64,000 nucleotides of DNA from Psammoneis japonica (lineage: Eukaryota): contig QPGO01000035.1 of assembly GCA_008632985.1 (NCBI GenBank), positions 111,899 through 175,898 of the forward strand, written 5' to 3'. The notes under the pieces are model-generated. The model saw only the letters and a list, made by a program, of their open reading frames with translations, had not been told where the DNA came from and ran no database searches. The position numbers were made by a program, and so were the translations under genes. Position 1 is the first letter of the stretch; each line of letters starts with the position of its first letter. Shown in pieces: positions 4,599 to 59,516 of this stretch.

Positions 4599-5033
4599 TG
4601 GTGAGCAAGTCAGTAAACTATGTAAATATTATCTTATTACTATCAGCTGCTTCAACGTGGGTTCTCTTCCTGCGCTCTTGTCACTACCTGGGTAAGCAAG
4701 ACTATCGCCTCTTTCTGCTCCACTCTCCATCTGCTGCTGTGGGTACCTGGGCAAAATATTTTGTTTTAAGCGTTGCATCAGCAGCTTATCAATACTCTAG
4801 ACAGGGTCTGCAAGGCTATCGCGTGACTGATGCCCTTGTCCATTTAGTGATGGAGATAGGGCCGTAAGCTGGCTAACCTCTAAGTCGTAGGTACAGTTGC
4901 GTCCAGGCTCAGGAGGTCCTCGACTTTGGTTCCAGCTTCCAGATTTTTATTCGCTTTCTTCGAAGGCTTCGAACGAAATTCGAGCGAAGCTCACTAAAGA
5001 ATTTACAGCTTATTCGCCTAAACGACATAAACA
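4599..5033 (+). mobile_element. LTR-like repeat copy A (TG...ACATAAACA), TpA intact
   Basis: Aligns by eye to 7555-8085 from GTGAGCAAG at the start to ACATAAACA at the end; TG..CA termini; no convincing TSD or internal pol found. Confidence 0.6.
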
Positions 5034-5079
5034 TGTTTACATTCAACATGCTCTGCTAAAGTAGAGCACACATTTCTAC

Positions 5080-8050
5080 GCAGGTCACTCTCCATCCAGC
5101 TTCGGTGTGAGAGGGAAGTTCGTCCCGCGATTGCAATTCTGCTGAATCCAACCATGATCCACTTTGTTCCATGTCTCTTCTTCACCTTGCTTGTTGTTCC
5201 TGGCAAGCGGGCCATGGCAACTTCTCTGTTGCTGTCAAGCCCAAGATTCTAAGATTTGAAGGGGAGCGTCTGCGTGTGCAACGCAACTGTCTGTCCGAGA
5301 GCATCTCTGAGCAGCTGTGCCAAGATCTTTGCTCGCAAGGTGTCTTTGACCACAGTGAAGACACCCAGCACACCACACTTTGCCACACAAAGGGTGGACA
5401 TGCGGGCACACGCATCAAATCCAGCAAAAGACAGCTCTCTCTGCTCTCCCAGATGTGGTCACAGAAGACCCAAAGAGAAAGGAGAGTTCAATCTTTTGCA
5501 CCAAGCTCATGTCAGGGCCAACTTACAAGAACACCAGGGAACTTGTCAAAAAGGCCATTCCAAACTGAGTCTTGGAAGATGATGCTGGAACAACTCACCT
5601 CTGCGCATTGGCTCCTTGTGCAGCGGCCTCAGCAAATCACATGGACATCGCTGGCTGACATTGTTGTTGTCCAGCTTGTTGAAGCAAAGGAGTGGTTTCT
5701 CTGCAAAAAAAAAGTCTTTGAAAAGAAACAAAATGTCAAGAACAAGCTCCAACTCTGTGCAACACACAATGAAGAAGAAATTGATGACATGGTCTGTGAC
5801 AATCGACAAGGCAGGCGACCCTTTGCCCGGGGGATGCACTGTTTCCCCCTGCATGCATCATTTGTTCAACAAGAGCCCCTCTTGAGATGTCTTCTGTGCA
5901 TCCCACCTCTGCCAAGAGCAAGTGCATGATGCACCCCAAAGAGGACATGGTTCATCAATCTCTCTTCAAGGGACCACCTGCAATGCAGCACCAGAGGGAG
6001 GGACAAACTGCAACCAACGGTGCAACACAAGCTGTGACAATTTCCCAAACTGCAACTTGAATCAAGGAGATGCTTCTTGCAGTGGCAGCTGCAATGCAAA
6101 CTGTGATGACAGTTGCAATTCTTGTGACAGCTGTTGCGATGACACCAGCTGTGCAGGCACTTTTTGTTTTCCTGTTCTCCTCTGCAATGGTCTGTTCAAC
6201 AGTGGTTGCTGTGACAGTTGCAACACCTCCTCTTGCAATGGCTGTGTTTGTGATTCAAGCACAGGAGAGGATCAAGCTGCAATGAAAGCTGCGATGCATC
6301 CCCAAACAAAATTTGTCCTTCACCAACTCCCGCCCCCACTGACACCAAGAAGACCCAGTCCACTGCTGACTCCTGCTCTCACTCCAAGGCCATCTCCCAC
6401 CCCCACTTCATGGCCCACTTTAAGTTCATCATCTTTGCTGACAGTGAGTCTTGCACCCACTGGGGTTTTCACGACCAACACATCACCGAACGGGGGCCAT
6501 TGCTCTGTGTGGTCTGGCACCAGATGCACAACAAAAAGCAACTCACCAGAAAGTCCAGCATGTTGAGATGACACATGTGAGTGCCATTCATTGAGTGGAA
6601 CAAGGAGTGAGCTCTGGGTGACAACCATGTTGGCAATTTTGTCATCAAAACACTTGTGAACATCAGACAGCAGTGTGTGCCTGGGTTGAAAAGACATTTG
6701 GACAATGGCTGAGCCCTCTCCTGCTCTGGTCAGCTCTGATTTGGCCTGCAAGGCACCCATGGCAACACCAATGAGATCTTTGGCTTTGTCACAACAGCCT
6801 GCATTGAACATGAGGCAGGATTTACAAAATGTGAGCAAAGCAAGTTTTCCATGTCAACAATCATGTGCACGGGAGGAGGACCTCTCATCCTCTGTTTTTG
6901 CACCGTGCAGATCTCAGTTGGTTCAAGTCAGCAGATGACACCAGCTGCTGCATTGATGTTTGACCAGCTCTCATGAGCCTCCACTCTGTCGCACAGCAGC
7001 AAGGCATGCTGGCAAAGGATCAGCACCAACATTCTACCAGAACTCTTTTGTGGTCTTGGCACACCTTGCAGATCACCTCCCAGCACTTGAGCTGGTGGTG
7101 ACAGATGGCTCCTGAGTTTGAAGTCAGCAAGGTGGCTCATCTTTGGCCTGGTGCCAAGATTGCACAATCTTCTCAGTTGCTGTGAGCACTGCTTCTTTCT
7201 CCTGCAGGACATGAGATGGGTTTGGGCTCATCTTCAACCAGGTTCATGCCTCTTGTGACATTGGTGTGTGTTTTGGCACGTTCTCCAACAACAGCCAACA
7301 TCAGGTGCAAAAGTGGCTGGTGCATCAGATGCAATGTGCCAGCAGCTCATCAATGCTCACAACAGGGCCTGCAAAGATGCTGGGCAGCTGATTTCCATGT
7401 CTGGCCTCTGACAGTCATGCCCTGTGTCCAAGGGGAGCTCAGGATGCCTTCCTTGCACACTGCACACTTGCTTTTCATTTGTCTCTCTCTTTGATTTTTG
7501 AATGCTTGGCTGCCCACAGCCACAAAACAAACAAGTGCTGCACAAGGTCTTTTTTGTGAGCAAGACAGCAAACTGTGCCTGTGCCCACTTGTCATTGACA
7601 TCAGCTGCTCTTTCACGGGGGGCTCTTTTCAGTCGATGAGAGGACCCCCTCTTCTTGCTGCACCCTGGCTGGTGTGCTGTTGTCATGGCACTACACTGCA
7701 AACCAATGTCAACTGGACTGCCACCTTGTTCTGTTAATGGAGCAACCTTTGCACCCAGCCGCTGCTGCAGGAATCTGGTGCAAAGCGGTGGGTGTTGGAA
7801 GAAGCACTCTCTTTTCTTGCTTGTGCACCAGCAGCTTGTCAGTGCTCCAGATGGGGTCTGCAAAGCTGTCGGACAACTGCTGACACCCTCATCCATCTTG
7901 TGGCAGAGACAGGGCCGCAAGGCAGAGCCAACCTCTGGTCGTGCAGTGCGTCCAAGAGCGCTCAGGACCGGACGTCATCCTCGAATTCGCTTCACAGCTT
8001 CCTCCTTCCAGATTTCGTTGCGTGTTGTGTGTGCGTCGTTCTCTCTTTGA
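5080..8050. other. TpA- and CpG-depleted degenerate repeat block 1
   Basis: Only a handful of TA dinucleotides in ~3 kb; TG/CA-rich; overlapping Tyr-free, Cys/His-rich ORFs in all frames. Confidence 0.85.
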
Positions 8051-8085
8051 GTTTTTATAACTTATGCGTCTGGATAACATAAACA
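7555..8085 (+). mobile_element. LTR-like repeat copy B, TpA converted to TG/CA
   Basis: Diverged homologue of 4599-5033, e.g. CAGCAGCTTGTCAGTGCTCCAG vs CAGCAGCTTATCAATACTCTAG. Confidence 0.6.
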
Positions 8086-30032: not shown

Positions 30033-30129
30033 AGTAGTCAGTCTTCCAATAATCGAAAATTGTTTCCATTAAATCCGTCCATCATGCTTTCTCATGCAGA
30101 TTCCAGCACTGCCAGCCTCATGGTTACTC

Positions 30130-32900
30130 AATGCAACACATTCACCACGCAAGAGAGCTGAACCCGTTGCTTCGACAGCAACAACAACCCTTGACACACA
30201 TCATTTTGTGCAGCCAATAACAATTGCCAGGGGCAGGTTGGAGATGATGCCATGAAACATGCAACACAGTTGTCAACAGACATTGAGTTCAGTGCATTTG
30301 TGCATGTGAAATTGGTGGGGGGGGGGGGGGGGGGCATGTCTGTCACGTGCCTGATGCCTGGTGTGCCTTTCTTTCCCCTCCTTTGTGAGTTTGGTGACAA
30401 CAATTTCAACAACACTTTTCAAGGCTGCTCCCCAGGTTGGTTGGATGAGTCCAATCTTAATTGAGAATGCACCTGGCAGACTTTGTTTGGCTGCATTGCT
30501 GCATTTTTTGATGGTGTGGCATCATTGGCCTGATGGATGATTGGTGGCCTGCATGTTTGCTGCACATTTTCAAACTGCATCAAAGATCATTTCTTTTGGG
30601 GGGGGGGGCAACGTTGACAATTTCTGATGTGCTTGATTCTGCTGAGAGTGCACCTGTCAAGACAGTGCTCTGGCAACAAAATGATCTGGCCATGATGGTG
30701 AAGAATCCTTTCAGGCTTGGTTCAGGCCTGCATGGGAGCCACTCTTATCTGATGTCAATGTCAACAAGATTTGTCAAGCACTGCACTTTTCATCTGACAA
30801 CAAGTGCTGGCTCATTGCAGCCAAAGCCCCACAAGCACAATGAGGACAAAGCCAGCATTGGTGGCAAACATGCTCTTGGATGGGCACAAATGACAAAAGA
30901 CAAAACAAGGACAGCCCAAAATCACTCCCATTGTTTTTTGCTGGCAACCAGCAATGTGTGCCCAGCTGCAGCAACCCAAAGTTCATCTCCAATGCCAAAA
31001 GTGCCACCCTGTCTTAGCCCTGTGTTTGTAAAAAGTCAGGGAACATTCTCCGCTTGAGCGACATGATTTCCAGAGCTGTGCATCTTGTCCAGCTCCAGCC
31101 CAATCATTCTCCACCACTTGCCACCACACCGACACATGGGACATGCCAAGCTCACTCTCACAAGTGTTCTGTGTGTGCATGGCTGGATGTTAAAATGGTC
31201 TTGCTGTAGTGTGCTGTTGGGGGAGCACAAGAACCTTGCCAAGGCCATGGCAGAGATGCCTTTGGCTCCACACATGAAGAAAAAAATTCTGCACAGGCCC
31301 AGCTGCAGTTTTGTTCACTTGGCCACACATGCAAGGCTTGTTGATTTGCTCTTTTCATGCAAAGTGTCCAACTTGTGACTTCAGGCACACTTCAGACCAC
31401 AGGGCTGTCTGTCACAACAAGCCAACAAAATGGAGATCAGCAGTGCAGTGATTGGAACCTTGCTTGCTTTTGCTGCCTTGCTGTTGACTCTCCTGCAAAA
31501 ATTGGAATGTTGCAGAAAAACTGCCAACAGTGGAATGGGGGCACCAAAAAATGATGGCCCAAGGGGGGATCTCAGCCAAAGGTCAAGTCAATCATGCTCA
31601 CAAAAATGGCCAAGCCAGCTGTGCTTGTGAAAAAGAAGCCACACTGCACACCTTGTGACACATGGTGGCAAGTTTTGACAATCAACACCAGCCATTGACA
31701 AGCAATGCACACATTTTGTCAACCCTCCCTCCCCTGACTTCACTGTGGAAAATCTCCATTCTTCCAACTTGAATGTTGTTGCAAGTGCCATGCAGTCATT
31801 GGGCAATGTGATGACAGGTGGCTGGACCATTTCATTTGACACTGCATGCGTGCTGCAGTTGCAATGTTGCCAGCCCACACCAGACCTCCCATGTGGGAGT
31901 GCAGCACCCACAATGCAAGACAGAGGTGGCCCTCTTCCCAATGGTTTGTGTTTTCACATCCACTTGAGCAAAGCCAGAGAATGAACACTGGCCCATGACA
32001 AACCACTTTTGTCACTTGGAGTCACATCAGTTGCCAGTGCAGTGCACACAAGCACAATGTGCACTGGAGTCAATTGTCACATTTTTGAAACCATTGCATT
32101 TTCCAGCAGTTGCCAATCTCACAAAGTGAAACTTTTGATGACAACAGTGTGAAACATTTGGTGAGGACACTTTGGCAACATTGCGTCTGACATTCTTTTC
32201 TTCTTTTTCAATTGTCGCACAAAACCAGAACAAAGCTGCATGCCTTTGAGTGTGGCTTCTGCCACTTTTTGGCTCCTGGGTGAGAAGAGGTCATGCACAG
32301 CATGGCTTTGGCCACTTTGCCAACCACCCCACTGCATGACACCATGAAGGGAGCAAAGTGACATCTTTGCTCAAGGCAGAGCTTGAGGTGCTTGTGTTTT
32401 TTCTTGTGTTTGCAGGTTGCTGGGACTTTTTCTGGTGTCTTGGATGGGCGTGACTTCACGCCTGTGTCTGGATGTGGACATCTGTGATGGTGTCTGTCCT
32501 TCCATCCCAGAATCCGTGGGAGAGAAGACATCCACAGTTTCCATCCTCACACACGTTGGGAGAGCCAGTGCTGCCTGGCTGACCACTGGAGGTGCTTGAG
32601 CTTCCTGAGAGGTGACCAGCGGGGTTGACCATGGATTCGCATGTGTGGGAAGGCTTGCAAGCCTCCCCAGCCAGGTCACATGGGTCATCACATGGTTGAT
32701 GGGGAGTTTGCACCCACACACATCACAGCACTCGGGTGGGTCTGGTGTGGAGTGCCGCGCCGCTCCTCCAAAGGCAGAGCACGTTGTGGAACTCTGGGCA
32801 CGAGAGTTCCGTGCCATTCAGCATGAATGGGCACACTGACAGCCACGCTCCGGTCTTGGTGCTACGTTGGACAGCTCTGGCCTTGATGTCGGGTGGAGTC
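30130..32900. other. TpA- and CpG-depleted degenerate repeat block 2
   Basis: Near-absence of TA and CG dinucleotides; contains a LINE fragment. Confidence 0.85.
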
Positions 32901-32990
32901 CCAAGGATCGACTTGAGGGTCTCCTCATGCGCTTTCACTTTCCGATCGGCTACTTCTCGTTTCACTTCGACAGTGTCCTGCCTTTTGGGT
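32225..32990 (-). mobile_element. 5'-truncated non-LTR retrotransposon fragment of RLE/CRE-like type (zinc knuckle plus restriction-like endonuclease region), degenerate
   Basis: GAWLSVCPFMLNGTELS..EF, CDVCGC..H, GFWDGRTDTITDV, KKHKHLKLCLEQRCHFAPFMVSCSG and KWQKPHS pieces match the recalled C-terminus of this family. Confidence 0.8.
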
Positions 32991-37809: not shown

Positions 37810-38060
37810 CTTTCGACTTATTTGCCAATCCACGATCTTCGTGAACCCATTTTTCACCTTCATCTCGGCTTCTTCGAGGAAGCAACTGATTGCCTGCGGG
37901 TCCTTGGCAGAGGGCTGTGGTCTTTTCTTGATGGCAAACTCTCAGCACGACGCCCAGCGCCCAGCTCATCCTGCACAGAGAGGACTGGGCACCCTTGTTC
38001 TGCGCACTCCCCCTGAAGCAGAGGTGCAGCTGGGTGCTCCAAGGCCACACACGTGGAAAT
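37810..38060 (-). mobile_element. Fragment of a DIRS-like (tyrosine-recombinase) retrotransposon pol, region N-terminal to RT
   Basis: ALEHPAAPLLQGECAEQGCPV and AIKKRPQPSAKDPQA..FLEEAEMKVKNGFTKIVDW resemble recalled diatom YR-retroelement sequence; not database-checked. Confidence 0.6.
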
Positions 38061-38339
38061 GCCAGTTGAGTTTTTGACAGCAAGCTGCCATGTCAGACAT
38101 GCTGCCATGTCAGACAATGAGCTCCTCCAGCTCTGAATGACAGGGGGGCTGCAAGAACGTGCTGCTTCACAGCCCCCGACGTGTTCTTTCACAAACTTTG
38201 CACACATTTCTGCATGACATGGGATCAACCCCACACACTGGTTTGCAGCAAAATTGCCAGGCCATCCATTTTCAACACACCTTTTTGGCTTTTTTGTTGT
38301 TGTGCGCAGTTGCACTTCATTCTCTGAGTGATGCAAGAG

Positions 38340-39690
38340 ATGAGAAAGCGCACGAGCACATGACAACTTTCCAAAAAAACTTGAGTGTGGAGAAATGTGA
38401 TGACGCTGCAAAAGCAGCCATTTGTTTTGATGACAAAGACAGATGTGCTCACCACCCTGTGTGCAATTTGCAGAGCTGGCATGCAGCGTCCTGCATGGGA
38501 CAAGAAATGTCCCAAAAAAATCCACCTGGAGCTGCAGAGAGCACCATGCCATCACTTGCCCTGTCTCCCTGGTTGACTCAGTCACATCTGTGCCCACCTG
38601 CCTCTTCCTCATCCAACTCATCATCAGAAACTGCTGGCATGTGCTTGCACTTTGTGGCTTTGCTTTGTGGGGTTTGACACTGGTGGATGGGCAAGGCCTG
38701 TTGGCAAAGGACTGGAGCATTTTCAGCTCTTGCACACTCTCCATGAAGAGCTCACACAATGCCTGGCATCCTGGGCAAGGATGTTGTGGGGCAGGATTCT
38801 TCTCTGGCATCTGGGGCACTTGGTCCAACTGATGTGCCATCCACAGTCACAAGATTTGTGCATGTCTGGGACATTCTGGGGGTCCTTCATTGTCTTTCAC
38901 AGTTGTCGGGCAGAGCTTGTTTGTTTTCTCCTCCTTCTTCCCTCCTCCTTGTCTGCCAATTGTGCACCATTTGGGTGCTTTGTGGGAAGGTGGCTGGCAT
39001 CAGTGTTGACAGGGAGTTGTTTCTTAGTGTGCACAGAGGAGGGGCACAAAAAGGGGCACAAAGAGGCATGTCTGAACTTGCTCTGGCAGGCATGAACAGT
39101 CGGTTGGAGGCTGTGCAAGAACTCATCCACTGCTGGACCAGCTTCTTTGATGCTCCTGCCACCATTGCTGCTGTCCAAATTGATTGCTGTGGTTTTTGGC
39201 CAAGAAGGTGTCTCTGGGAAATGCTTCTTGTGGCCACCTGTCTTGTGACAGCCAGCATGGTGCGCGCATGTGTGGGGCCAAGTTCAGGCATTCTTTGGTC
39301 AGACACTTTTTCAGAAAGCTTGGCTCCTTTTCCTTTGTGAGCTCCTCATGCAGCAAAAATGCACATTGAGTGGCAGGAGACATGTTGCCCCCATCAACAT
39401 GTTTGACAAGGTTCTGTGTGTGCTCATGGTTGTTTTGATGATTCCCTCTTGTGCTCTTTTGTAGCCACCTTTAAATGCCTGCCATGATGACATGTGCAAT
39501 GTGCCCTCCAGTGCATCTGTCCTTTGGCTTGGTTGGTGCATGACCCCTCCTTGACACCTGTTTAAAGCACAGCAAAAGGCAGACATCATGCAGTTGGCAC
39601 AGCTTGTGTGCAGCACCAGTGGCACCTTCTTGGGAACTGCTGCTGCTTGTGCACATCTGCCAAAAATTCAATGGTTGTTGTGTGCTCCAT
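38340..39690 (+). repeat. Diverged repeat copy 1 (38340-38745 and 39470-39690), homologous to 45895-46595
   Basis: Shared strings e.g. GCAAAAGCAGCCATTTGTTTTGATG, GTGCAATTTGCAGAGCTGG and GGCACCTTCTTGGGAACTGCTGCT. Confidence 0.85.
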
Positions 39691-42600
39691 GCTGCTGTCC
39701 TTTTTGTCTCTGCAGTTGTGAAACATTTGTGACAAACAAATCACTCACCATGGATGACATCGTGAGACAATTTCCTGAGTGAGGGACACACATGAATGCA
39801 GTGTCCTGGCACCTGTCAAAGCAATTGTCAACATTCTCCACATGTCTGTGTTGCAGTGAACAAGGAGGAGACGCTGCTCACCTTTGCCACCAAGAACTGG
39901 ATTTTTGGCCTGTTGGGCAGATGTGGGCACTGGCGCTGCACCAATCTTTTGCAGCCAACAGTCTTCCTGCCAACCCCATGTCTGATCAATGTTCCCTGCT
40001 TGCAGCTCCTGACATTTTCAAGCAACTTGACAAAAAAACAATCAAGGTGTGCAAAAAGCAGAGGAGGTGGTGGCATCTTTTTGGTGCATGTCTCAAAAGC
40101 TGATGTGGAGACACTGGCGTCACATGTTTTGTGTTGGAGCAGGGAGCCAGCAACAAGAAAGAAAATCATGTGGGCACTTGCAACCCTGGCAACAAGAGTT
40201 GTTGAACAACTTTGGTTGTGCAGGGCAGCACTTTGTCTTTGGCCCAGATGGAAAACAAGACAAACCACCATGTGACAACCAGATGGATTTTCTGCTGTTT
40301 TTGACAAGGTGCAAGATGTCAACCATGGGGTGGAGATCAAAGCAGATGATTGCCAATTTGTCAGATCAGATGCAGAAAGCCCATGACAAAATCAGTGCAG
40401 AATGTTTGCCTGCAAAAAACTGCTGGAGCTTCATGTTCTTGCTGCAAAAACATGAGACCATTCAGGCGAAACATTTGTCAAGAGCAGATGACTGCACACA
40501 GAAGCACAAGGACAATCAGAGTTGCACTCTTGGCTGGGCACACACAAACTGGTGCTTTTTGTGCAACTGTGGTTGATCATGAGGGTTGGCTCTGGTTGCT
40601 TGTGGCTCTGGTCAACAGCCAAGCCAAGGTCACATGTGGGTTTGGTGCATGCTTGCTCTGCAGCCAAATGCAATGTCTTGTGCCAGTGCACTGGACACTG
40701 CCTTGGATGATTTCAGGAGAGCTCTCATCACTTGGTTGACAATGTTTTGCTCAACCACACAGAACCCCACAGAGCATGTTGCTGGACAAATGCTGTCCTT
40801 GGTTGCAGCACAATTTGTCCATGATTGCTGGATTTCTCCAGCCTCTTCTGTTGTGCACAAAACATGAGGTTCCTGTGTGAACAAACTGATTCAGTTGGAA
40901 TTTGTTGCTGGTCATTGGCTTGGCTTGCAATGTTTTTTTCTGTGTGTGCACAAGTTGTTTGAAGAGGAAATGATCTGTGGGCACAGCTGACAAAAGCCCT
41001 GCTGTTGTCCATGGGAAGCATTTGACAAAGCTGTTTTGTGCACTCATCTCAGACAAGTGTCTCAACAAGGCACATCTTGCGTCAGTTGGCAATCTTGATT
41101 TTTGTTCAGTTTTTGTGGATGGAAATTCCAAGGAGGAAAGAAAAGCAGCCGGCAAGACAGTGAATGAAGTGCTGAAACATGTTGACTGGAAACTGCAGTC
41201 TTGCATTTCTGTGATGAAAAAGTGCCTGCACAGCAGATCAGTGAAAGGGTTGGAACCAATGAGTTCCATCCCAAGAATGTCAAGGTTTTGTTCAAAAACA
41301 TCATGGTCTCTGGAGTCCACTTGATTTGTGACAGTGCTGAGTTTAAATTGATGACAACCATCTGGACACTTCCAGTCCTTTGTGGCATTGACATTGGGGG
41401 GCACATTGACATCCATCATGACCTTGTTCATCCTGCCTGGGATCTTGGAGCTGACACACAGCTTGCCCACATCAACAAGAATGACAGAGTCAATGTGGCT
41501 TGCTCACTTGCAGAAGCTTGTGGTTTGGAGGGATTTAGAAGAAACAATGGCAAGGAGGGGCCCTTGTGTGAAGTGGCAAGCAACTCATTTGGCAATGCTC
41601 AGTGTGGGTTGCCATTTGTGTGGGGCACATCTCTTCACATTGCATGGTGTCTGCACAGGCACTCAGAGTGTCAGGACATTTGGCAGCTGTGAATGGGAAA
41701 AGGTGAAGTGCACATGCTGCTGAGTGATGATCTGGATGGCACCAATGCTGGCTCCTCTCCAATTGTGTGCAGCATGATCACAACACCCAGAACAATGCCA
41801 GCCCTTTCAAAAATGCTGATGACAATGTTGCCCACCACAACAGTGGCAATTGGAGCAATGAACAGCTGGAAAATGATGAAGCCACAAAACCAGCAAGAAA
41901 AAAAAGATGGAAGGATGTTGTGTGCAACACTCCTGAGATTTGCCTTGGCAAGCAACAAAGCCCATGACAATCTTGATGATCTTGACAGTGAAAAGAAGTT
42001 GCAGAGTGAACAACAGAAAAACAATGCAAAATGACCAAACCAAGCAGCAAGAAAGGAATGAGGGGAGTTGGCCAAGCACATTTCCCAGAAGGTTTCTGAC
42101 ACTTTTGTTTGAAGTTGCAAGTGTGTGCCTCACTTGATGCCTTCGCTCTGTGTCACACAGCAAAGAAGATGTGTCTGTTGCAAGCATGCTGGATCACCTT
42201 TTGCATTGCCTCTGCATGACTAGCCAGAGCCAGGGGGGTGAAGCAAACATGCTGTCTTGCAGTGATGTCACAGGATTGAGAAAGGCAAGTCCTTCCTCAA
42301 GACTCATCAATGAATTGGGGATGAGGCAAGGTGCACTCATGCAGAAGAGATGGGCCCTGGCACACAAGTTCACACTGTCTTGGCAAGACAGAGACAGCAC
42401 CCTGCATCTCAATTGTGATGTGTCAGGCAGGCACACACTCTGAAATTGCAACAGATTGGCTCTGGATGCAAGGCTCATGGTGTGATGACATTGATGGGAA
42501 AAATTTCTTTGTCAAATGACTTGTTTGGGTTGCTGTTGTCATTGCTGGACAACACTGCCAATGAATTGGTGGCAAGGCTTGAGAACTTGCGTGTGCCGCT

Positions 42601-44152
42601 CAATCTTTGTTCATTCACAGCAGCAGCTCAGCACACTGTTGGGTTCAAGCAAGAGCTGGCTCCTGCCACACTTTGATGATTTGTGCACAGACAATTGGCT
42701 GCAGCTCTGGAGTTCAGCCTCACTGTTGAAGTTTGGACATTGACAATGAGGCAAAACGAGCAACAACCCATGTTTGACAAATGCAGCAATCAAGAATGCA
42801 TGCCCTCATTGGATTGAAAGCCAGAAAAATGCAGAAGAGCAGCCCAGAAGGTCTCAGGGAACTGGCTCTCCAAGCAAGAACTCCATGCACTGGAGAAAAC
42901 AAAGTGCGGGCAAAGAAGAACCTTTTTTGCTTCATTCACTCCAGCTCACAACTGGCCACTGAGGACCACAAAGCCAGACTTTTTTGCATGCCAAAATTTG
43001 AGTTGTTCAAAGGAGGGCTGTGCATTTTTGGGTCTGTCTGCTTGAGTTGGTGTTTCTGCCAATGTCCAGTTGTGCCTGCATGAGTGGTGTCAGTTTTTTT
43101 GCATCAAAGTGTCCTCATGCCCAAATGTTTGATGGCAAAGAACCACCACACGTGGTTGGGAACTTGCTTTTTTGTTCACGCAGAAGATGGAGCATGTCAA
43201 ATTTTGACACTTCTTGCTTTTTCCAAGCTGAGTTTTCTCATGCCATTTCCCATTGATTTGCTGTTTTTCTTTGCTTGTGCTGACATTTCCATCAGCTGTT
43301 TTGCTCCTTTTGCTGTCCTTGTCCCTTGGCCAACTGCTGACACTCATTTCCTTGTCTTGTGTCCACTGTGCAAGAGAGTGACCCCAGGTGGTGTCTTTGT
43401 TTTGGAGTTGGCCTTGCTGCCATTTTGCCCCTTGCCCCATGAACACACAATTGAGCAACAACAGGATGGACAGGCCATGTTCAATCAGTGTCAGATTGGT
43501 TGCTGGCCAGCCCCTCCCAATTCCAGCATGTTCCTGCAGCCTCTGCGGAGACTTTGAATTGTTGCATGCCAAATTTTGCGGGGCAGAGCTTTTTCAACGC
43601 ATGGATCCAAATCTGCACCATGCACCATGTTGCATCTTTTCAAAAATCAACATCTGTCAATGTCTCATTGATGCCACCCACATGTTGCAAAGCATGTCGC
43701 AATGGTGCATGTCTGCTTTGTCTTGCTCCTCTTGTTCTTGTCAATGTTGGCTTGATCTGCCGTTCTCTTCTTTGATGCATGCTCTTTTGTTGCTTTTTCA
43801 GATTTTGCCATGAGCCCTGTTCTGAATGCTGCTTCTGCACTCCCCTTTGCTCTGCGATCTGCAGTTTGCTTTCTGTGTTTTTGGTGCTCGGCTTTTGCTC
43901 TTGAATGGACAATTTTTTTTACAATGTTCTTCCACATGTGCTTCATTGACGCAATGGCCATCCATTTGCTGCCATTCTCTTGGGATGTTTTCAAAAAGGA
44001 GCATCGCAACACCTCGTCTCCCATTGGATTCTCCACATGCAGAAGTCAAGAAAATCATCACCACGACATTCAAAAGCTTTTGCATCACATTGTCCCCGTG
44101 TCTGACACAGCAGTGTCTTTGCAACTGCAAAAAAAGGCTTGGAAACCAAGGC

Positions 44153-44291
44153 CAGAGGTGCACAAATCGTCTGTTGTCGTTCGCACACGCGCACTTGCAC
44201 ACTCAGCGCGCGCACAAACGACAAAACGATGACATCGTTTTGTCGTTCGTGCGTTGCACGCGGGCGACAACAGACGATTTATGCACCTCTG
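44153..44291. mobile_element. 139-bp hAT-like MITE, nearly palindromic
   Basis: 27-bp TIRs CAGAGGTGCA(C/T)AAATCGTCTGTTGTCG; perfect 8-bp TSD ACCAAGGC (44145-44152, 44292-44299); inner hairpin. Confidence 0.92.
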
Positions 44292-45894
44292 ACCAAGGCA
44301 AGCCATCCAATGTTGTGACTCTGTTCTCCCCGTGAACAACAGTCACTCGTGCAATTGTCGTCCAACATTGCTTTGTCATGAAAGATTCTCATGCCATCTA
44401 AGAATTCTGCCAGGTCTTCAACAGCTTCAACGGATCTCCAATTTTCCTCTTTTGCCATTTTCTGCCTCCGTGAAAGCTTCTTCTGAAGAGAAAATGTCAC
44501 CCAACCACCTCGCCATGTTGTCCTTCTTCAGTCACACATCGGCACACTCTTTCTTCTGCATGCTTTGTTTTGATGCCAAAAAGACAGCCATTGGATTCCT
44601 TGTCCAATCCAACAGATGACAAGAAAGAGCCTAGACCAACTTGGCAATGCTTGCCACAGAGTTTGGAAGTGGCAGAATCTTGGGCTTCACTGGAGCAGAT
44701 GACAGCAGTGCAACTCTCTTCATTTGAAGAAGGCACAGATGTTGGCAGATGCCATCATTTCAAGTCACACAGGAGATCTGCAGCCTTGTCCATTGCTCTG
44801 CCTGCAGTTGACTGCGCTGCTGGCACTTGACATTCCAAATGTGACAACCAATCTGCCTGTGCCATCAAACACATTTGTCTGTCATTGTCCTGGATCCGTT
44901 TAAAGTGCCCTGATGACAAGGGCCCTTGACAGTCCTTGGTTGGATCAGGGGCATTGCGACTCTGCTTTTGGTTCTTGCAAGTTGCTCTGTGAAAGTTGGA
45001 TTTCCTCTTTCCACAGAAATGGTGCTGTCAGCCCCTGCTGCAGGCATCTGGAGGTTGCATTGTCTGCAAAGGCATCAAACTCTTTGAAGAATCATCAACC
45101 AAAGAATCCCTTCTTAGCAGGTTCTGGCTCTTCCTGCCATTCCTGCCTCACAAGCCGAGTCAAAGTGGCAGAACTCAGAGAGGGAGCAACATGTCATGAA
45201 GCAATGAATTGCAACATGAGTTTGTGGATCAAATAAAATGTCAAACAACTTTTGCGTCCCTCCCATTGAGAGTGTCAATGTTGATTGTTGAGTGTCATTG
45301 TGTGTTGCAGTGTTCAGAAAAATCAAAATTTCAAAAAGCTCCGCCCCCCGCAAAATTCAGCATGCAACAAATCAAAGTCCCTGCAGCCAATGTGCAATCA
45401 CACCGGAAATGGGAGGCCAGCCGGCAACTGGTCCAATGATGATTGAACAAGAACAAATTGTTGAAGCCTGCGGCGGAGCCTGCACAGCCCTGCCTGTCCT
45501 GTTGTTTGATTGCACATCCATGCCTTGCCACCCCAGCTGGAGGTCAGTTCACCAGATGGACAAAGCTCTCTGAATGGCCTGTGTTCAACATCTTCCTGTG
45601 ACCCACACATCATGTGGGATCTGGCCTGTGTGCCAAAAACAGCAGAATCATCTTCAGAGTCAGTCTTGCTGCCACTGGATCTCTCTTGCATGTCCCTTCT
45701 GGAGTTTGCTGAACAGGCAAATCTCTCCAGTGGCTGCTCAGCCTGCATTCAATGATCTTCCTCTCTTCCTTGCCTCATTTGGGATTGCAGTCACAGTGCC
45801 AAAAGTGGTCACAAGTCATCTTTGGAACATCATCTTCAGAGTCGTCAAACTTGCTGGCAGATTCTCTGAAGTGTGCAAAGTGCTGCAAGAGACA

Positions 45895-46595
45895 ACAACA
45901 AAGCACGAGCACATGTGACAACTTTCCAAAAAAAGCTTTAAGTGTGAAGAACTGTGATGGTGTTGCAAAAGCAGCCATTTGTTTTGATGTCAAAGACAAA
46001 TGTGCTCACCTGGTGTGCAATTTGCAGAGCTGGTGTGTGGAGTCCTGGTGTGGGACAAATGCCCCAAAAATCCCCACCTGGAGCTCTGGGGAAAGCACGT
46101 CATCACAGTTGCCCTGTCCTTCCTTGTTGACTCAATCATGTCCATGCTCCCACCTGCCTCTCAATCATCTGGCTCATCATTGAACACTTTGTGGCCTTGC
46201 TTTGTGGGGTTTGACACAGGTTGACAGGCAAGGCATGTTGGCAAAGGGTCTGGGCATTTTCAGTTTGCACTCTCCGCAAACAGCAAACCACACAACTTCT
46301 TGTGTCCTTGGCAAGGGCAACTGTGTGTGCCCATGATTGTTTTGACACCCCCCTTGATTTCTTTTTTGGCCATCTTTTAAACGTCTGCCATGACAACACG
46401 CAATGTGCTCTGCAGCACTTCTGTCCATTGGCTTGGTTGGTGTGCAGCACCACCTCCTTGACACATCCATTCTTCAACACACAGCAAGGGGCAGGTGTCA
46501 CACTTTTGGCTCAGCTTGTGTTCACCAACGGCACCTTCTTGGGAACTGCTGCTTGTGTGCATCTGCCACAAATTTGTTGGTTGTTGTGTGCTTCA
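45895..46595 (+). repeat. Diverged repeat copy 2, homologous to 38340-39690 but lacking most of its ~0.7-kb central part
   Basis: By-eye alignment to copy 1. Confidence 0.85.
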
Positions 46596-47849
46596 TCAAT
46601 GTTGCCACCCCTCCTTGGTCCTCCCCACAAGAGTGTGCAAGAGAGATGTTGGTCCAGTGAGCACTGCAATTTTTCCAGGGCAGGCCTCCTCTCCCCAAAC
46701 ATCTCAAAGAGTGCATTGTCCTCCAGGCTCTTTTTGCCCTTTCTTCTCTGCAGGATTAGAAGCAGATTTGTGCAACTGGTTTTTCATTGTGCAGGTGACA
46801 AGAGATGTGAGAAGAGATGTTGTTTCTCTGGTGAGTGCTGCTTGCCAATGCCACACTCACACTCAACCACAAGAGCTTCTTGCTGCACAAAAGAATTTTG
46901 GACATGTTGGTGATGTGTGCCTCTTCTTGGTGTTCTTCTTCTCTTCTTTGCAGCTGCATCTGTGCAGAGAGTTGTGTGCCAGGCATCATCCTTGCATTTT
47001 TTTCATTGGAGTCTTCCACCTCACACATGAGTGGATGCACAACATTGGCATCTTGCATTGTTCAAAAACCAGGGTCTTCCTTGTGCTTGTGCAAACCACC
47101 TCTGCTTCACTGCCTGTGACAGAGGAGTGCAGTGCAGGGGCTTGACTGAAAGCTGGTTGACCAGAGATGAAAATGAGTGGGACCAAAATTTGCCTCAATC
47201 AAATGTGCCAAGGCACCAGTGCATGTCTTTTCTTGCACAGGATTCTACAGAGTTTTGCCACTGAGAATGTTTGGTGGTGCTGGAACTTGTCATGGATGCA
47301 TGGCCAAACTTTTCACCACCACTTTGCAACAAAGAAGCTGCTGACCTTTTTCTGACACAAATGTTGCACCACTCACTTTGCCTCTTGTGACCCAAAATTC
47401 TAGAGATCTGTTGTCATTCTTCTTGGCACACCTGGTGCTGCAGTCAACCACTTTTTTGTGTGGAGTTGCAGCATCACAAAAACTGGGGAGAAGAGCTGCT
47501 GGCACTCTCTGCCACCACAAAACAGCGCCAGTGCTCACACTTTTCAACTTGTGATTGGCATGAAATGTTTGTCCATTTGCCAGCTGAGTGTGTTCTGTGC
47601 TCCACTGGTTTGTCTCTCACCCCACAGAATTGGAGCACCCTCTCTCCCTCTCTCTCTTGATGTGATTAAACCCAGCACAGAGTTAAAGGGCCTGTGCAAA
47701 ATGGAAGGAAACAGCAGAAGGATGTGCGGAAGTGGCAGCAGCGGAGGAGCAGAAAGGCTGCTGAATGCAGTGTGCAGGGTGTTTGGCAGAGGAGGTGGGA
47801 AATGAGTCAGTGTGGAGGGAGGATGCAAAGCAAAGGGAGCATGCATGGA

Positions 47850-48200
47850 AAGATGGCAGATGAGGTTGCATCCCCAATCATTTGAACATCCCATTGGGAA
47901 GGGAAGGGAAGGCAGAGTGGTGGTGTGTGCTGCACCAAAGCAGCCATTGGAAAGGTGGTTTCACACAAAATTGGCAGAAGGAAGAAGGGCAGATGGGTGA
48001 ATTGGGGCACCAAGAAAGGCAGAGCAGGAAGCATTGGAGTTGTGGAGGTCAGAGGAGGAGGGCCAGGGGGGCTTGGACTGACGGCAGAGGAGAGTGAAGA
48101 GCTGAAGAGAAGTTGAACAAGGCAAAAGAAGCCAAGACCATGAAGGTGATCCATCAACAAGAGATCCATCAGTGAAAAAGGCAGAAGGTCCAAGAAACTT
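47850..48200 (-). mobile_element. Possible degenerate RNase H domain of a retroelement
   Basis: FFTDGSLVDGSPSWSWLL and a downstream WGCNLICHL resemble RNase H motifs; frames disrupted. Confidence 0.35.
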
Positions 48201-48884
48201 TGGTCTTGCACTTGAGGGGTGTGCCTTGGTTGGGATGGGGGGAGAGGGAGCAGGGCAAGAAGGAGCTTGCGGAATGGCGAGGCATGCAGCGGGGGAAGGA
48301 GCCAAAAGAGAAGCAGGAGGCAGTGTGGAAATGCTGACATCAGCAGGATGGAGCAGCAGATGGGTGGGAAGTTGACTCATGGGCTTGGGGTGAACATCAC
48401 TTGAGGAGTGACAGAGCTTGGCAAGCAGCCCCAAGGTCTGGGACAGAACAAAGAAGGTGTGCCCCTGAGAGGCTGTTCTTGGGCACTCCCAAGGTTCTTG
48501 GTGACCCGATCAGCAAGAAAAGGTATGACCACCACAAGCATCAAGCACAGCATGACCACAGGGACAGGGTGTGCCAACAAGGGAAGGAGGAAGGATTGGG
48601 AGACGGAGCTTCCGCCCTCTTTGCCCGTCCTTTGGACATGGCGTTGTGAGTCAGGCGGTGTAATGAGAGTCACGCCAGTTCTCTGTAGATCTTTTTTCGG
48701 CAATCATCAATCGTCTGTTTTTGGACTTTGCGTGTTGCAATCGATCGCACAGCATCACAGCATCACAGCTCACAGCAACAGCAATCAACGATCAACGCAA
48801 CATTGCTCGGACAAAGATAGCTACGATTTTTGTTATCCTTTGTGTTCTGTCAGCCACTCTTTAGTATAGATACAAAAAATTGAT

Positions 48885-55220: not shown

Positions 55221-55259
55221 TCGTGTTACCACTTTTAGCTGTACGTACAGACAGTACAG

Positions 55260-58200
55260 TCTCTCTCTCTCTGCCGACCGGGACAGTTGTTGTTGTGTGC
55301 AAAGAGACAGACTCTTGTGCTCCAAGTGGTGAGGCGACCCAGCCGTGGGGGGTTGATGCAAGTCACGCTGCACCATGAGGACACACAGCCAAATGAACCC
55401 AAAATGAAATGTGACAAATCCAACACATGAAAACAGTTCACAAAAAAGTCGTTCCAAGTCTTTTGTTGAGCCCCAAGTCAAGCCTCACAATCAACGCCAG
55501 AGAAGTGGTTCCAACACACTCTCCAGAAGAAGGAAGAGACTCGAGATTGAGTGCAAGGACAAGCAACCAATCAAATCAAAACACAACAGTGGCTGACAAC
55601 GTTGTGTTGCATTGCAGCCATTTCTTTTTTTGCTGAGTTCCGAGTCAAGCTGTCATGCACAATTGACGCGAGTCAATCTCGGTTTCCCTTGGAGCCACCA
55701 AGTTCCAACCCTGGCAACAGACAAGGACACAAGCCACAATTTTGTTTCACAGCAACAGCTTCCACGAGAATCCTCGCTGCAGTTCAACTCAAATCAAGTC
55801 CAACAAAACCCATCCACTGCTGCTCCAAAAGTGTCTCACATTTGCAACAGTAAAAACACCATTCAATCACGTGCACTGTGACCTCAAAACAGAAAATTCA
55901 ATGGTGCAATGCTGGTGCCAGTGCACCCATTCACTGGAATGCAACAACTCCCTCACACAAATTTGGCTCAAATGACATCACACAACCCCCCCTCCCACTG
56001 CTCAAAAACTGTCTCTCATTTGAAAACAGCCACAGCGCCATTGTTCACATGTGTGCACCACCATGCCCTCATGCAGAACAATTGATGGTGCAATGCTGAT
56101 GCACTCATGGTTGTCCCTGTCATCAGCCAGAGGAGCTCCGCGGTTGCACAACAAGGCGATCACCACAATCAACAATTGCACTCACATGACTTGCAAATCA
56201 TCAATGCTTGAACAATGGAGCACTGCTGCCTCCTTGTTTCAGAGCATGAAACAAAATGGACAGCTGCTGTGAGCAAGATGACACAAATGTCCACCACAAC
56301 TGGCCAAGCATCAAACATGTCATTGCACCATGAGATGCATGAACACAACTCAAGAGTGCACTGCATTTTCTCACCACAATGCCAATGCGTGCACATGTCA
56401 GCCCCAGAAAAGGGGGGGGGTCAATGGGATGGAGCCAACTGGCTTTGAAATGAGCATTGCAGAGACTTTGAGTTTGTGCTCCCCTTGCAGGAAAAGCACC
56501 AGAAGCCATGTGGCATGATTGGGTGGTGCTTGATCTTGGGAGGATGGGCCACTGGGCAACTCCCCCAGTGCTGCAAATGAAATTGAGCATGATGATGCAC
56601 ATCTGCATGGCTTCCTGTGGGGCACTTGTCTCTGCACAATGTGCACCTTTGTCCAGCTCAGTGCCATCCAACCCCAGCAGATTTTTGCATCAAGAGCATG
56701 CCAGAGACAGACACAAACAGGCACAACATGTTCTCTAAAGTGCCGCAGTTCCCATCATTTTTACAAAGAGGAGAATGAAGGGGGGAAGGAACAGAGAGCT
56801 GAAGGGTGGATGCAAGAAACCAGCAACATCAATGCAAGAACCATGAAAGCCAGCTCTTTTTGATTTCATTTTCATGAAAAAAGGTCAAGGGAAGGTGGCA
56901 ATGACAAAGACAGCCATCACAATGTGCTTGGTTTTCCTTCCCAGAACAGCAGCTGAAAGATGAGGGCAGCAACATTGTTGTTGCGGCAGTGCTCAACCCC
57001 AGCACAACAAGCAGAGGTGACCTGCAGAGCCCACATGAAACAACTTGCTTGTTGCAAACAACATTGCTGAATGAGAACAGCACGTGTGTGTCTGCCAGTT
57101 TTGGTTCAGACAACATGGTGTGTTTCTGTGTGGTTGCACTGCTGACTCAGCCAGAATGCAGAGAGCAGAGCTGGCTTGTTTGTGTGGCATGTGGAGCAAA
57201 GAAACATGAAGAGATCTCAGCTTTTTCAAAAAGCAAAAAGGACAGCATGGAATGAGCAGGTCTGCAGCTGAAAAGGGAGCAGGACCTGAAGAACTGCAAC
57301 ATCAACTGCAGTGACAAAAGCCAGCTCTTTTGCAACATTGCACTTGTGAAAGAGAGGACAAAGGAAGGTCACAACAATGAAGGCAGGAGCAGCAGGTGTG
57401 GTGGTGCACCAGGCTCTCACTTTTTGGCCCAGCTCTTGAAAAGCAAAGAAGTCATGCCGTCATTGTGACAGTGCTCCAATGTGACAGGGAGTGGTGACAT
57501 GCAGTGCCAAATGAGCTGCTTGTTCATTGTGACACTGAGTGAGCTGTCTTGGTGTCTGCAAGTTTTGGTTGAGATGGTCATGTGGCACACACTTCTCATT
57601 TCTTGTATCCCGGCCCATTGTTGCACAAACAAACTGGCACTTGCCACACTGCACACAGCTCAATGCTCCAATGCAGTGGGCAGTGGGAGCTGATGGTGTC
57701 AAGTGAGCTGCTTCTGACATTGTCTGAGCAGTCTGCATGTTTGCACACTCACATTGCCACCTTGGCCAAAAGCAGCAGAGAGAGAGAGAGAGAGACAGAG
57801 AAAAAAAGTTAGCTCATTTGCACATGAAAAGCTCTCAAACAGATGAGGGCAGTGCACTCAAAAGCAGTCACAGCAGCAGAGAGAAAGATGAGAACACTCC
57901 TGACTGGCTGGTGCACACCCTGTGAGATCACCCCACCTCCAGGTGATTCACACATCTGTTCAACCACCACCACAGGTGTGTGTGTGAGTGCAAGTGTGTG
58001 TGTGACATGAAACCAGCAAGCAAGCCATCAGCTCTTGCTGACTGCCAGTGTCACTCTGTTCAGATCTCTGAGATTTTTTAGCATCTGGAGCATTAAAAAA
58101 TGTCTTGATCCTGGCCCTGAAAGTGCTTCTCATTCTTGGTCCCCAGCTCCCTTTTGTGTTGCCTGCACCCTCCTGCTCTAATCTTTCTCTTTGACAATGG

Positions 58201-59390
58201 GCTTTTCACATCATTCACAGAACAACCCAGCAGCACAACCCAGCCATCATGAATGTCAACAGAAGTGCAACAAGCTCCCAGCTCAAGCTCATCATGAATT
58301 CAGCTGTGGAGAAAAGCATGCTGGGAGAGATCCTGGAAGCTCGACTCTTTGTGCTTGGCTGTCATGAGCAAGTCTTCCATTTGTCCACAGTCCTTCAATG
58401 TGCTGCAATCTGTCATGCAGCATTTTCTGTTGGTTGTCTGACACAAAAGGCTGACAAGGGTGCCAGACAAGAAAAAAACTTTTGGCCTGCTGGGTCAAAT
58501 GAGGGTTTGTTGAATGGCCACCAGGTGGCATCCCTTGGAACAACACTTGTGTGCCAAAACACTTGCTGATGTGCAGAGACAGTCACATGCTTTTGCATTT
58601 TGTTTTCTTGTTTGTGCTGGAGAATGACCCCCAACAACGTGCTTGCCAGCGGGGTGCTGCATGTTGGACATTTCTCAAAATCATGTTGACGTTCAATGGC
58701 TCCCTCATTTTGCCTGTCTCAGTGTGTTCTTTTTCTCCAGAACCAGGAAAAACATGATTCATGGTGTCACAGGAGGTCAAGATGGTGACAGGCACACAAA
58801 ATGTTCCTTTTGTGGGCTGTCACTGAAGTGATGAGGCCTCCTTTGCCATGTTCACAGAGGATCTTGTTAGAGCAGCACATCTTGGAGGATGTGCATGGCA
58901 GTTGACATGCACAGCACTCAGTTGGCATGCATTTCTTCCAGCAAATGCAGTGGCTCACTGTTTCAAAACTTTGGTGCCAAACTGTGTTGATCTGCTCTGT
59001 CATTTTGCACAAAACTGTGCCGCACATTTGACATGTCTTTGCTCATCACTCAGGACAAGAGCTGCTGATGTGGCACTTGCTTGCAACAAGATGAAGAAAC
59101 CACAGCCATTTGGCAACTCTCATCATTTAGAAAAACGCCACTGGCAGCACCTGTTTGCAACAAGAGCTGGCTCTTGTTCACAGCCCAGACAAATGATGGG
59201 CATCAAGAATGTTCCAAAGATCGTTTGCAAGCCAGAACTTGCGTTTGCATGGACTTGGTCATGTCACAAGTTGGAGCAATCTTTTTGAGTGAGATCTGTT
59301 CAATGGGAGTGTGGGTTCTTAATGCCAACAGAGATTGTGGTGTGGACGACAACAAAGCTTGATGATGGATCAACCAAAATGCCGATGACA
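55260..59390. other. TpA- and CpG-depleted degenerate repeat block 4
   Basis: Near-absence of TA; a WHDWVVL piece (~56510) weakly recalls Plavaka-type transposase C-termini. Confidence 0.85.
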
Positions 59391-59516
59391 GGTATGCCAG
59401 TTGTACCGCGTAAATTAATCGATTACTCCTGCAAGTTTGATTCTTTTCACCCTTCCCTTCTTAAAAGCTACAGTAGACATTCCTCTAACTACACCGAATC
59501 TGACAGCCGTGCAAGT

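What the first reader, a model, noticed from the sequence alone, without database searches (positions are those of the whole stretch)
38100..48400. Surviving TAs reveal target context: YTAR persists, RTAY is gone
A manual count gave ~20 TA: 16 YTAR (TTAA, TTAG, CTAG, CTAA), 2 RTAR, 2 YTAY and 0 RTAY. This is the ranking expected if the preferred substrate is 5'-TAY (A->G) on either strand, since RTAY offers two targets and YTAR none. Such flanking specificity argues for an enzymatic process rather than GC-biased drift, and resembles the UAC context of TadA. YTAR is slower, not immune (see the LTR pair).
Basis: partly seen in the sequence, partly recalled or inferred. Interest (0 to 1): 0.75.

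Follow-up and report, generated by a model that had tools for sequence, protein, structure and literature searches.

The report
Flanking-base rule of diatom TA-erasing mutation
In silent stretches of this diatom DNA nearly every TA step has been rewritten to TG or CA, and the few TAs that remain sit almost only in the context pyrimidine-TA-purine, which shows that the unknown mutator reads the base after the A (TAT and TAC fast, TAG slower, TAA slowest) on each strand separately.

Summary
The count is right. In 38100-48400 there are 21 TA: 16 YTAR, 3 YTAY, 2 RTAR, 0 RTAY. All four TA-depleted blocks of the window hold 47 TA: 30 YTAR, 16 mixed, 1 RTAY. The undepleted rest of the window has 297/902/525. 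The skew is significant under four different nulls (p 6e-17 to 6e-10).

A model in which each strand is hit independently, at a rate set by the base 3' of the A, fits all 16 contexts (deviance 9.8, 12 df). Apparent rates are TAT 3.25, TAC 2.19, TAG 1.23, TAA 0.45. The products are skewed as TAY->TGY predicts, though this test is indirect. YTAR is slower, not immune.

The chemistry (A->G or T->C) and the enzyme are not shown; the TadA likeness is only partial. ADAR-like and Pol-eta-like signatures do not fit.

This scan had already found the TA-erasing process in other windows of the same genome. A 2026 preprint reports TpA-only hypermutation in another alga. I found the flank rule in neither.

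The parts
37820..48523 (.). TA-depleted block B3, which contains the finding's region
   Evidence: 21 TA remain, all within 38100-48400 (16 YTAR, 5 mixed, 0 RTAY). TA o/e is 0.00-0.06 per kb and CG o/e 0.04-0.56. Of 99 ORFs of 70 aa or more, none reached a Pfam cut-off.
5078..8055 (.). TA-depleted block B1
   Evidence: 7 TA remain: 3 YTAR, 4 YTAY. The product skew Delta is 0.268.
30126..32950 (.). TA-depleted block B2
   Evidence: 8 TA remain: 3 YTAR, 5 mixed. Delta is 0.087, the weakest of the four blocks. Contigs of the same sample differ from the window by TG<->CA double changes at 31770/1, 31921/2 and 32479/80.
55256..59392 (.). TA-depleted block B4
   Evidence: 11 TA remain: 8 YTAR, 2 mixed, 1 RTAY. 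Delta is 0.173.
38327..39705 (+). Left copy of an LTR-like direct repeat (38327-38783 and 39414-39705, with about 630 extra bases between)
   Evidence: blastn gives 75-76% identity to 45879-46615; identity is 86-88% once transitions are ignored. There are 106 transitions and 36 transversions in 715 aligned columns.
45879..46615 (+). Right copy of the LTR-like direct repeat
   Evidence: Same pairing. TTAA at 46378 is kept in both copies (partner 39472). TTAA at 45939 faces TTGA in the left copy. TTAA at 39563 faces TCAA here.
4774..4940 (+). Unmutated copy, outside B1, of a short repeat whose other copies lie inside B1
   Evidence: It aligns to 7824-8002 and 7335-7403. Its TAs face TG or CA in the inner copies; about 5 of 8 mixed-context sites went in the direction TAY->TGY. 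Parts of the alignment are unsure.
7335..8002 (+). Span holding the two mutated copies of that short repeat inside B1 (7335-7403 and 7824-8002)

Best explanation
The four blocks are silent DNA, at least partly repeated. A locally confined mutator has turned A:T into G:C at TpA steps, and CpG has also been lost.

The mutator acts on one strand at a time. It reads at least the trinucleotide 5'-T-A-N-3'. The A (or the T paired with it) is changed fast when N is T or C, about 2 to 3 times slower when N is G, and about 6 times slower when N is A. A further A at +2 slows it as well.

A TA step therefore has two independent half-sites: RTAY has two fast ones, YTAY/RTAR has one, and YTAR has none. That is why the survivors are TTAA, TTAG/CTAA and CTAG, often within TTTAAA.

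Shown: the survivor skew, the fit of the half-site model, the product skew, the equal use of both strands, and the abrupt block edges.

Inferred: the agent is an enzyme that flips out a base and contacts its neighbours. The most likely candidate is a nucleic-acid adenine deaminase (A to inosine, read as G) aimed at silenced chromatin.
For: 1. Survivors: 30 YTAR, 16 mixed, 1 RTAY of 47, against 297/902/525 of 1724 in the background. The skew is significant under four nulls, p 6e-17 to 6e-10.
2. Half-site model: the likelihood-ratio test against a single rate gives chi2 74, p 6e-16; the fit has deviance 9.8 on 12 df. Rates with bootstrap ranges are A 0.45 (0.22-0.72), G 1.23 (0.92-1.64), C 2.19 (1.8-2.8), T 3.25 (2.6-4.6).
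3. Products: among YR steps flanked Y__Y, the TG fraction minus the CA fraction (Delta) is 0.215 in the blocks and 0.048 in the background. The Mann-Whitney p is 7e-9 for 1-kb chunks.
4. Delta is the same where CpG is mostly kept (0.207) as where it is gone (0.223).
5. CTAG also survives better than RTAY: 3 of 36.4 expected against 1 of 254.8, p 0.007.
6. TG and CA are balanced in every 500-bp window, so both strands are hit.
7. AA is not depleted: o/e 1.22 against 1.16.
8. RTAY sites stand intact within a few bases outside the block edges.
9. Contigs of the same sample differ from the window at such sites. For example, at 42547 the window has CTGG and the contig CTAG.
Against: - The ancestral sequence is not known. 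The window's gene-rich background stands in for it.
- My hand arithmetic on the AT and GC dinucleotide budgets overshoots the model by about 100 sites, so the proxy is imperfect.
- The joint estimate of direction is loose: pTA 1.05 (0.53-1.72), pCG 0.49 (-0.05 to 0.94).
- Block B2 alone gives pTA 0.49-0.63.
- In paralogous pairs, mixed-context sites are discordant (TG against CA) in 20 of 104. That fits pTA near 0.8 best, but 0.5 or 1.0 only slightly worse (likelihoods by my own arithmetic).
- Direct before/after sites give about 5 of 8 in the predicted direction.
- C and T at a pyrimidine flank can be swapped by the process itself, so TAT against TAC is less sure than Y against G against A.
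- No protein, no RNA and no modified base was examined.
Confidence: 0.7

Rival explanations
1. The context rule is the same but the chemistry is centred on T. A thymine-modifying enzyme (for example a TET/JBP-type hydroxylase making 5-hydroxymethyluracil) acts on T in 5'-R-T-A-3', and the modified base or its repair gives T->C.
For: A->G at TAY and T->C at RTA are the same event seen from the two strands, so every count here fits both. In dinoflagellates 5hmU replaces T preferentially in TA and TC, lies on transposons and helps silence them (passages of PMC11572971).
Against: I know of no report that 5hmU gives near-complete T->C conversion (recalled, not searched). No such enzyme or base was examined here.
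Confidence: 0.17
2. The duplex palindrome RTAY is recognised as a whole, for example by a dimer, and there is no strand-specific half-site.
For: Survival falls in the order YTAR > mixed > RTAY, which a two-half-site duplex reader would also produce.
Against: At sites with only one favourable flank the products are skewed to the strand that carries TAY: Delta is 0.215 against 0.048. A symmetric reader would not do this. The test is indirect.
Confidence: 0.06
3. The surviving TAs are not survivors. They are new TAs, made later by ordinary C->T or G->A changes in the abundant CA/TG, or by a TC-preferring cytosine deaminase (TCA->TTA).
For: Most survivors have a T before the TA or an A after it, as TCA->TTA would give. 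CpG loss here does prefer TCG.
Against: - The contexts of TG/CA in the blocks predict 10.4/24.6/11.9, not 30/16/1 (p 1.5e-11).
- T[C/T]YY shows no loss of C in the blocks: 0.449 against 0.415.
- CTAG, which TC->TT cannot make, also survives better than RTAY.
- One TTTAAA site is kept at the same column in both LTR-like copies.
Confidence: 0.04
4. The skew is a composition artefact: the blocks were already rich in YTAR and poor in RTAY before the mutation.
For: The ancestor is unknown. The unmutated copy at 4760-4950 has about 5 YTAR among 12 TA.
Against: It would need about 64% YTAR and 2% RTAY in four unrelated blocks. The 300-bp flanks have 24% and 20%. The purine/pyrimidine-coded class totals of blocks and background are alike: 0.52/0.26/0.22 against 0.53/0.24/0.24, by my arithmetic.
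Confidence: 0.03

Closest known systems
TpA-restricted hypermutation of integrated viral DNA in Bigelowiella natans (Mettrop et al., bioRxiv 10.64898/2026.01.13.699255). I read the abstract, section 11 and passages.
   Same: A:T->G:C confined to TpA, giving TpG/CpA. It is local, falls on foreign or repeat-like DNA, and leaves TpA-depleted, CpA+TpG-enriched clusters.
   Different: - The host is a different lineage (here a diatom).
- Here CpG is lost as well, and the depletion is near total (TA o/e 0.04).
- The words context, flanking, neighbour, logo, trinucleotide and tetranucleotide are absent from the preprint's main text, so I saw no rule beyond TpA there.
- Its Figure 2B and Table S2 were not visible to me and may hold such data.
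Repeat-induced point mutation (RIP) of Neurospora and other ascomycetes (recalled; listing of PMC7296669)
   Same: Local, near-saturating transition mutation of repeat DNA with a dinucleotide rule. Both strands are hit.
   Different: RIP is C->T at CpA and creates TpA; here TpA is destroyed and CpA/TpG are made. Dependence on duplication is not shown here: most of B3 has single-copy depth at 80% likeness or more.
TadA / ADAT2-type adenine deaminases and TadA-derived base editors
   Same: The natural target A34 follows U33. The review PMC10661471 lists the preferred context 5'ACG for TadA/ADAT2, which gives U-A-C-G and so matches -1 T and +1 C. Amphioxus ADAT2 deaminates both C (at TCG) and A in DNA (PMC10354150), and CpG loss here is fastest at TCG.
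   Different: Here TAT is at least as fast as TAC. Amphioxus ADAT2 prefers GAA for A, not TAY. No enzyme was examined, and eukaryotic ADAT2/3 substrates have varied +1 bases (recalled).
ADAR editing and DNA polymerase eta WA hotspots
   Same: Both give A->G with a preference for a base before the A.
   Different: ADAR1/2 prefer 5'UAG, but TAG is a slow context here and both strands are equally hit. Pol eta targets WA (recalled), but AA is not depleted.

Membership tests
TpA-restricted hypermutation (Mettrop et al. 2026) | Changes are A:T->G:C and fall on TpA only, giving TpG/CpA | tested here: met
   TA o/e is 0.04 and CA/TG 1.8, while AA is unchanged. The lost mixed-context TA and CG together (about 906) match the gained TG/CA (about 895). 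This is inferred from composition and a few pairs, not from observed new mutations.
TpA-restricted hypermutation (Mettrop et al. 2026) | Confined to foreign or repeat-derived regions, with neighbouring genes spared | tested here: inconclusive
   Four blocks have abrupt edges between ordinary gene DNA. There is an LTR-like repeat pair, and some segments have 3 to 16 times the single-copy depth. But 0 of 181 block ORFs reach a Pfam cut-off, and most of B3 is single copy at 80% likeness or more.
TpA-restricted hypermutation (Mettrop et al. 2026) | No accompanying C->T excess (spectrum almost only A->G/T->C) | tested here: not met
   CG o/e is 0.17 in the blocks against 0.97 outside. CpG loss may be a separate process, since TA loss reaches further than CG loss at several edges.
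RIP (Neurospora type) | C->T at CpA in duplicated DNA, which raises TpA | tested here: not met
   TpA is erased and CpA/TpG are raised.
TadA/ADAT2-like deaminase signature | T (U) immediately 5' of the edited A | tested here: met
   Only TA is depleted; AA, CA and GA are not.
TadA/ADAT2-like deaminase signature | C at +1 and G at +2 (U-A-C-G of tRNA-Arg; context 5'ACG in PMC10661471) | tested here: inconclusive
   +1 Y is fast, but T is at least as fast as C. +2 G cannot be judged, because CG is itself mutated. +2 A is protective.
TadA/ADAT2-like deaminase signature | A deaminase of this family is encoded by the organism and acts on DNA | not testable with these tools
   No genome is held for this window.
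ADAR-type editing | 3' G preferred (5'UAG); editing of one strand of a dsRNA | tested here: not met
   TAG is 2 to 3 times slower than TAY. TG and CA are balanced in all 39 windows of 500 bp.
Pol eta WA mutagenesis | A->G at both TA and AA | tested here: not met
   AA o/e is 1.22 in the blocks against 1.16 outside.

The most novel reading that the evidence does not exclude
One deaminase that needs a 5' T, of the TadA/ADAT2 kind, edits both bases in silenced diatom DNA: A to inosine at T-A-Y and C (or 5mC) to U/T at T-C-G. It would act as a dual-base, RIP-like genome defence whose trinucleotide fingerprint is readable in the survivors. The shared 5'-T preference (TA only; TCG the fastest CpG context) and the dual TCG/A activity of amphioxus ADAT2 on DNA leave this open.
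Probability: 0.1. Interest if true: 0.9.

Novelty: new variant of a known kind. Interest (0 to 1): 0.62.

Why it matters
TpA-erasing hypermutation has so far been reported only in one 2026 preprint on another alga, and its agent is unknown.

A flank rule (TAT and TAC fast, TAG slower, TAA slowest, each strand on its own) is a fingerprint that candidate enzymes must reproduce. It already rules out ADAR-like and Pol-eta-like signatures. It also points to an agent that reads one strand at a time rather than the duplex palindrome.

The rule can be tested on the 231 de novo mutations already published for Bigelowiella. It also tells annotators what survives: TTAA and TTTAAA islands in otherwise TA-free DNA.

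Tried and rejected
- Protein route to ancestral Tyr codons: Pfam on 99 ORFs of B3 and 82 ORFs of B1, B2 and B4 gave no family above its cut-off, so no coding frame could be used.
- Whole genome: none is held.
- Reads and contigs: one sample holds the stretch. Laying its contigs at 80% likeness listed only 40 of 593 differing places, too few for a spectrum.
- Metagenome scan with the ABC transporter: 6 of 80 loci are 50-51% identical, on contigs of 1.8-3.3 kb; the rest are 48% or less. I did not scan any of them for blocks.
- Protein atlas gave no usable taxon.
- Joint solution for the direction of TA and CG changes: the intervals are too wide to separate the two.
- Paralogue discordance and the before/after repeat: too few sites to settle direction.
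- AT and GC dinucleotide budgets (my hand arithmetic): the sign fits TAY->TGY, but the size overshoots.
- Notes of this scan searched by words for a flank rule: nothing found.
- Literature searches found no other report of TpA-erasing mutation.
Full report
**What is there**

The window is nuclear DNA of a diatom-like alga. The named relatives of its ABC transporter are all diatoms (Attheya, Mayamaea, Fistulifera, Seminavis, Nitzschia, Eucampia), at 65% identity or less. No whole genome is held.

Four blocks have lost almost all TA: 5078-8055, 30126-32950, 37820-48523 and 55256-59392.

| Dinucleotide o/e | Blocks | Rest of window |
|---|---|---|
| TA | 0.04 | 0.58 |
| CG | 0.17 | 0.97 |
| CA | 1.84 | 1.18 |
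| TG | 1.80 | 1.15 |
| AA | 1.22 | 1.16 |

The lost TA and CG reappear as TG and CA. In the mixed-flank class, about 906 sites were lost and about 895 gained.

**The observation**

In 38100-48400 there are 21 TA: 16 YTAR, 3 YTAY, 2 RTAR and 0 RTAY.

All four blocks together hold 47 TA: 30 YTAR, 16 mixed and 1 RTAY. The undepleted DNA has 297/902/525 of 1724.

I tested four nulls: the window background, the 300-bp flanks of the blocks, a plain 25/50/25 split, and the contexts of TG/CA inside the blocks (what new TAs made from TG/CA would look like).
- For all blocks, chi-square p lies between 6e-17 and 6e-10.
- Each block leans the same way.

**A quantitative rule**

I fitted survival(N1-TA-N2) = exp(-(k[N2] + k[complement of N1])). 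This means two independent strand-specific half-sites, each with a rate set by the base 3' of its A.

- The model fits the 16 contexts with deviance 9.8 on 12 df.
- It beats a single rate with chi2 74, p 6e-16.

| Base 3' of the A | Apparent exposure k | Bootstrap range |
|---|---|---|
| A | 0.45 | 0.22-0.72 |
| G | 1.23 | 0.92-1.64 |
| C | 2.19 | 1.8-2.8 |
| T | 3.25 | 2.6-4.6 |

Further points on the rule:
- TTAA survives best (14 where 33 are expected), then TTAG/CTAA, then CTAG (3 of 36).
- CTAG still survives better than RTAY (1 of 255; p 0.007).
- An A at +2 is also enriched among survivors: 0.53 against 0.28 overall, and 27 of 51 against 0.36 when +1 is A (p 0.013). This explains the recurrent TTTAAA.
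- Purine flanks cannot be altered by the process itself; pyrimidine flanks can (C of CG, T of TA). So Y > G > A is firmer than T > C.
- These rates are apparent. Uneven exposure along the blocks would flatten them.

**Direction of the change**

If the A followed by a pyrimidine is the one changed, YTAY should become YTGY, not YCAY.

All changes here are transitions, so the purine/pyrimidine class of the flanks is preserved. Among pyrimidine-purine steps flanked Y__Y (with R__R turned over), I took Delta as the TG fraction minus the CA fraction.
- Delta is 0.215 in the blocks and 0.048 in the background.
- 1-kb chunks average 0.233 against 0.045 (Mann-Whitney p 7e-9).

CpG loss could add to this skew, but two observations limit its share:
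- Delta is the same in 200-bp windows that keep most CpG (0.207), in intermediate ones (0.206) and in CpG-free ones (0.223).
- The CpG survivors show only a 2.2-fold flank effect.

Estimates of pTA, the share of mixed sites that go TAY->TGY:
- With pCG set to 0.5 or 0.61, the four blocks give 1.20/1.08, 0.63/0.49, 1.11/0.98 and 0.88/0.75.
- The survivor rates alone predict 0.77.
- The joint estimate is loose: pTA 0.53-1.72.
- Paralogous pairs inside the window give, at mixed sites, 54 TG/TG, 23 CA/CA and 20 discordant of 104. This fits about 0.8 best but only weakly (likelihoods by my own arithmetic).
- One short repeat has an unmutated copy outside B1 (4774-4940) and mutated copies inside. 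About 5 of its 8 mixed sites went in the predicted direction, with unsure alignment in places.

I therefore hold the strand-specific TAY reading at about 0.7, not higher.

**Other properties**

- Both strands are used equally. TG against CA in the symmetric classes shows no heterogeneity over 39 windows of 500 bp (p 0.14). That speaks against editing of a single-stranded intermediate.
- The edges are abrupt. Fast RTAY sites stand intact within a few bases outside the blocks, for example three GTAC at 55242-55255.
- YTAR is slowed, not immune: 30 are left of about 144 expected. In the LTR-like pair (38327-39705 and 45879-46615), one TTAA column is kept in both copies and two in one copy only.
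- Contigs of the same sample differ from the window at such sites. At 42547 the window has CTGG and the contig CTAG. TG<->CA double changes lie at 31770/1, 31921/2 and 32479/80. This suggests recent or ongoing change, though only 40 of 593 differing places were listed.
- None of the 181 ORFs in the blocks reaches a Pfam cut-off. That these blocks are transposons is therefore not shown here beyond the repeat pair and raised depth in some segments.

**Rivals**

- New TAs made from TG/CA: the contexts do not fit (p 1.5e-11), and there is no TC->TT signal outside CpG.
- A composition artefact would need 64% YTAR in four unrelated blocks; the flanks have 24%.
- A duplex RTAY reader does not explain the product skew.
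- ADAR prefers 5'UAG (review PMC10661471, passages), but TAG is slow here.
- Pol eta WA (recalled) would deplete AA, which is not seen.
- T-centred chemistry cannot be excluded. 5hmU in dinoflagellates prefers TA and TC and marks transposons (PMC11572971, passages).

**Comparison with what is known**

The closest known case is the TpA-only hypermutation of integrated viral DNA in Bigelowiella natans (bioRxiv 10.64898/2026.01.13.699255; abstract, section 11 and passages read). Its main text holds no analysis beyond the dinucleotide; I could not see its Figure 2B or Table S2.

The TadA likeness is partial: -1 T and +1 C fit U-A-C-G, but TAT is at least as fast as TAC. Amphioxus ADAT2 on DNA prefers TCG for C and GAA for A (PMC10354150, passages). 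CpG loss here is fastest at TCG, which keeps a dual-base deaminase open as a bold reading.

**Prior work of this scan and verdict**

Earlier agents found the TA-erasing process in other windows of this genome (8 notes shown of 55). Three word look-ups for a flank rule returned nothing. Literature searches found no other report.

The kinetic reading is supported, with an indirect direction test. The enzyme and the chemistry remain open.

Noticed in passing
all four blocks (5078-8055, 30126-32950, 37820-48523, 55256-59392): CpG loss has its own flank rule. The apparent rate by the base 5' of the C is T 1.19, C 0.84, A 0.76, G 0.53 (likelihood-ratio p 1.5e-5). TCG goes fastest and GCG is kept best.
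   Followed up: partly
37820-38180, 55256-55870, 5078-5650, 43820-44419: TA is gone but CpG is largely kept in these stretches, mostly at block edges. So TA loss reaches further, or runs faster, than CpG loss.
   Followed up: partly
31770-31771, 31921-31922, 32479-32480, 42547, 33058: Contigs of the same sample differ from the window by TG<->CA double changes. There is a TA/TG difference at a CTAG site (42547). One GTAT about 100 bases outside B2 (33058) reads GTGT in the contig. These look like allelic or copy differences made by the same process.
   Followed up: partly
43341-44674, 48010-48676, 32002-33335: Summed contig depth is 3 to 16 times the single-copy level of about 65, so these parts of the blocks are repeated in the genome. 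38005-43340 stays at single-copy depth at 80% likeness or more.
   Followed up: no
55160-55225: A 14-base unit rich in CG is repeated about four times just left of block B4. It is followed by GTAC GTAC ... GTAC and a (TC)n run at the exact edge of the block.
   Followed up: no
18759-19311 and 20345-20898: A pair of similar stretches in ordinary, TA-normal DNA (81% identical in purine/pyrimidine code). They are duplicated and not mutated, so duplication alone did not trigger the process here.
   Followed up: no
all four blocks, sites outside pyrimidine-purine steps: There is a slight general shift from A/T to G/C. It is strongest for A followed by C: RR[A/G]C has A fraction 0.458 in the blocks against 0.537 outside (odds ratio 0.73). 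This could be weak off-target A->G or a composition difference.
   Followed up: no
44150-44294: Purine/pyrimidine-coded self-comparison shows an inverted repeat (44150-44189 against 44294-44255, and 44210-44254 on itself) inside the high-depth segment of B3.
   Followed up: no
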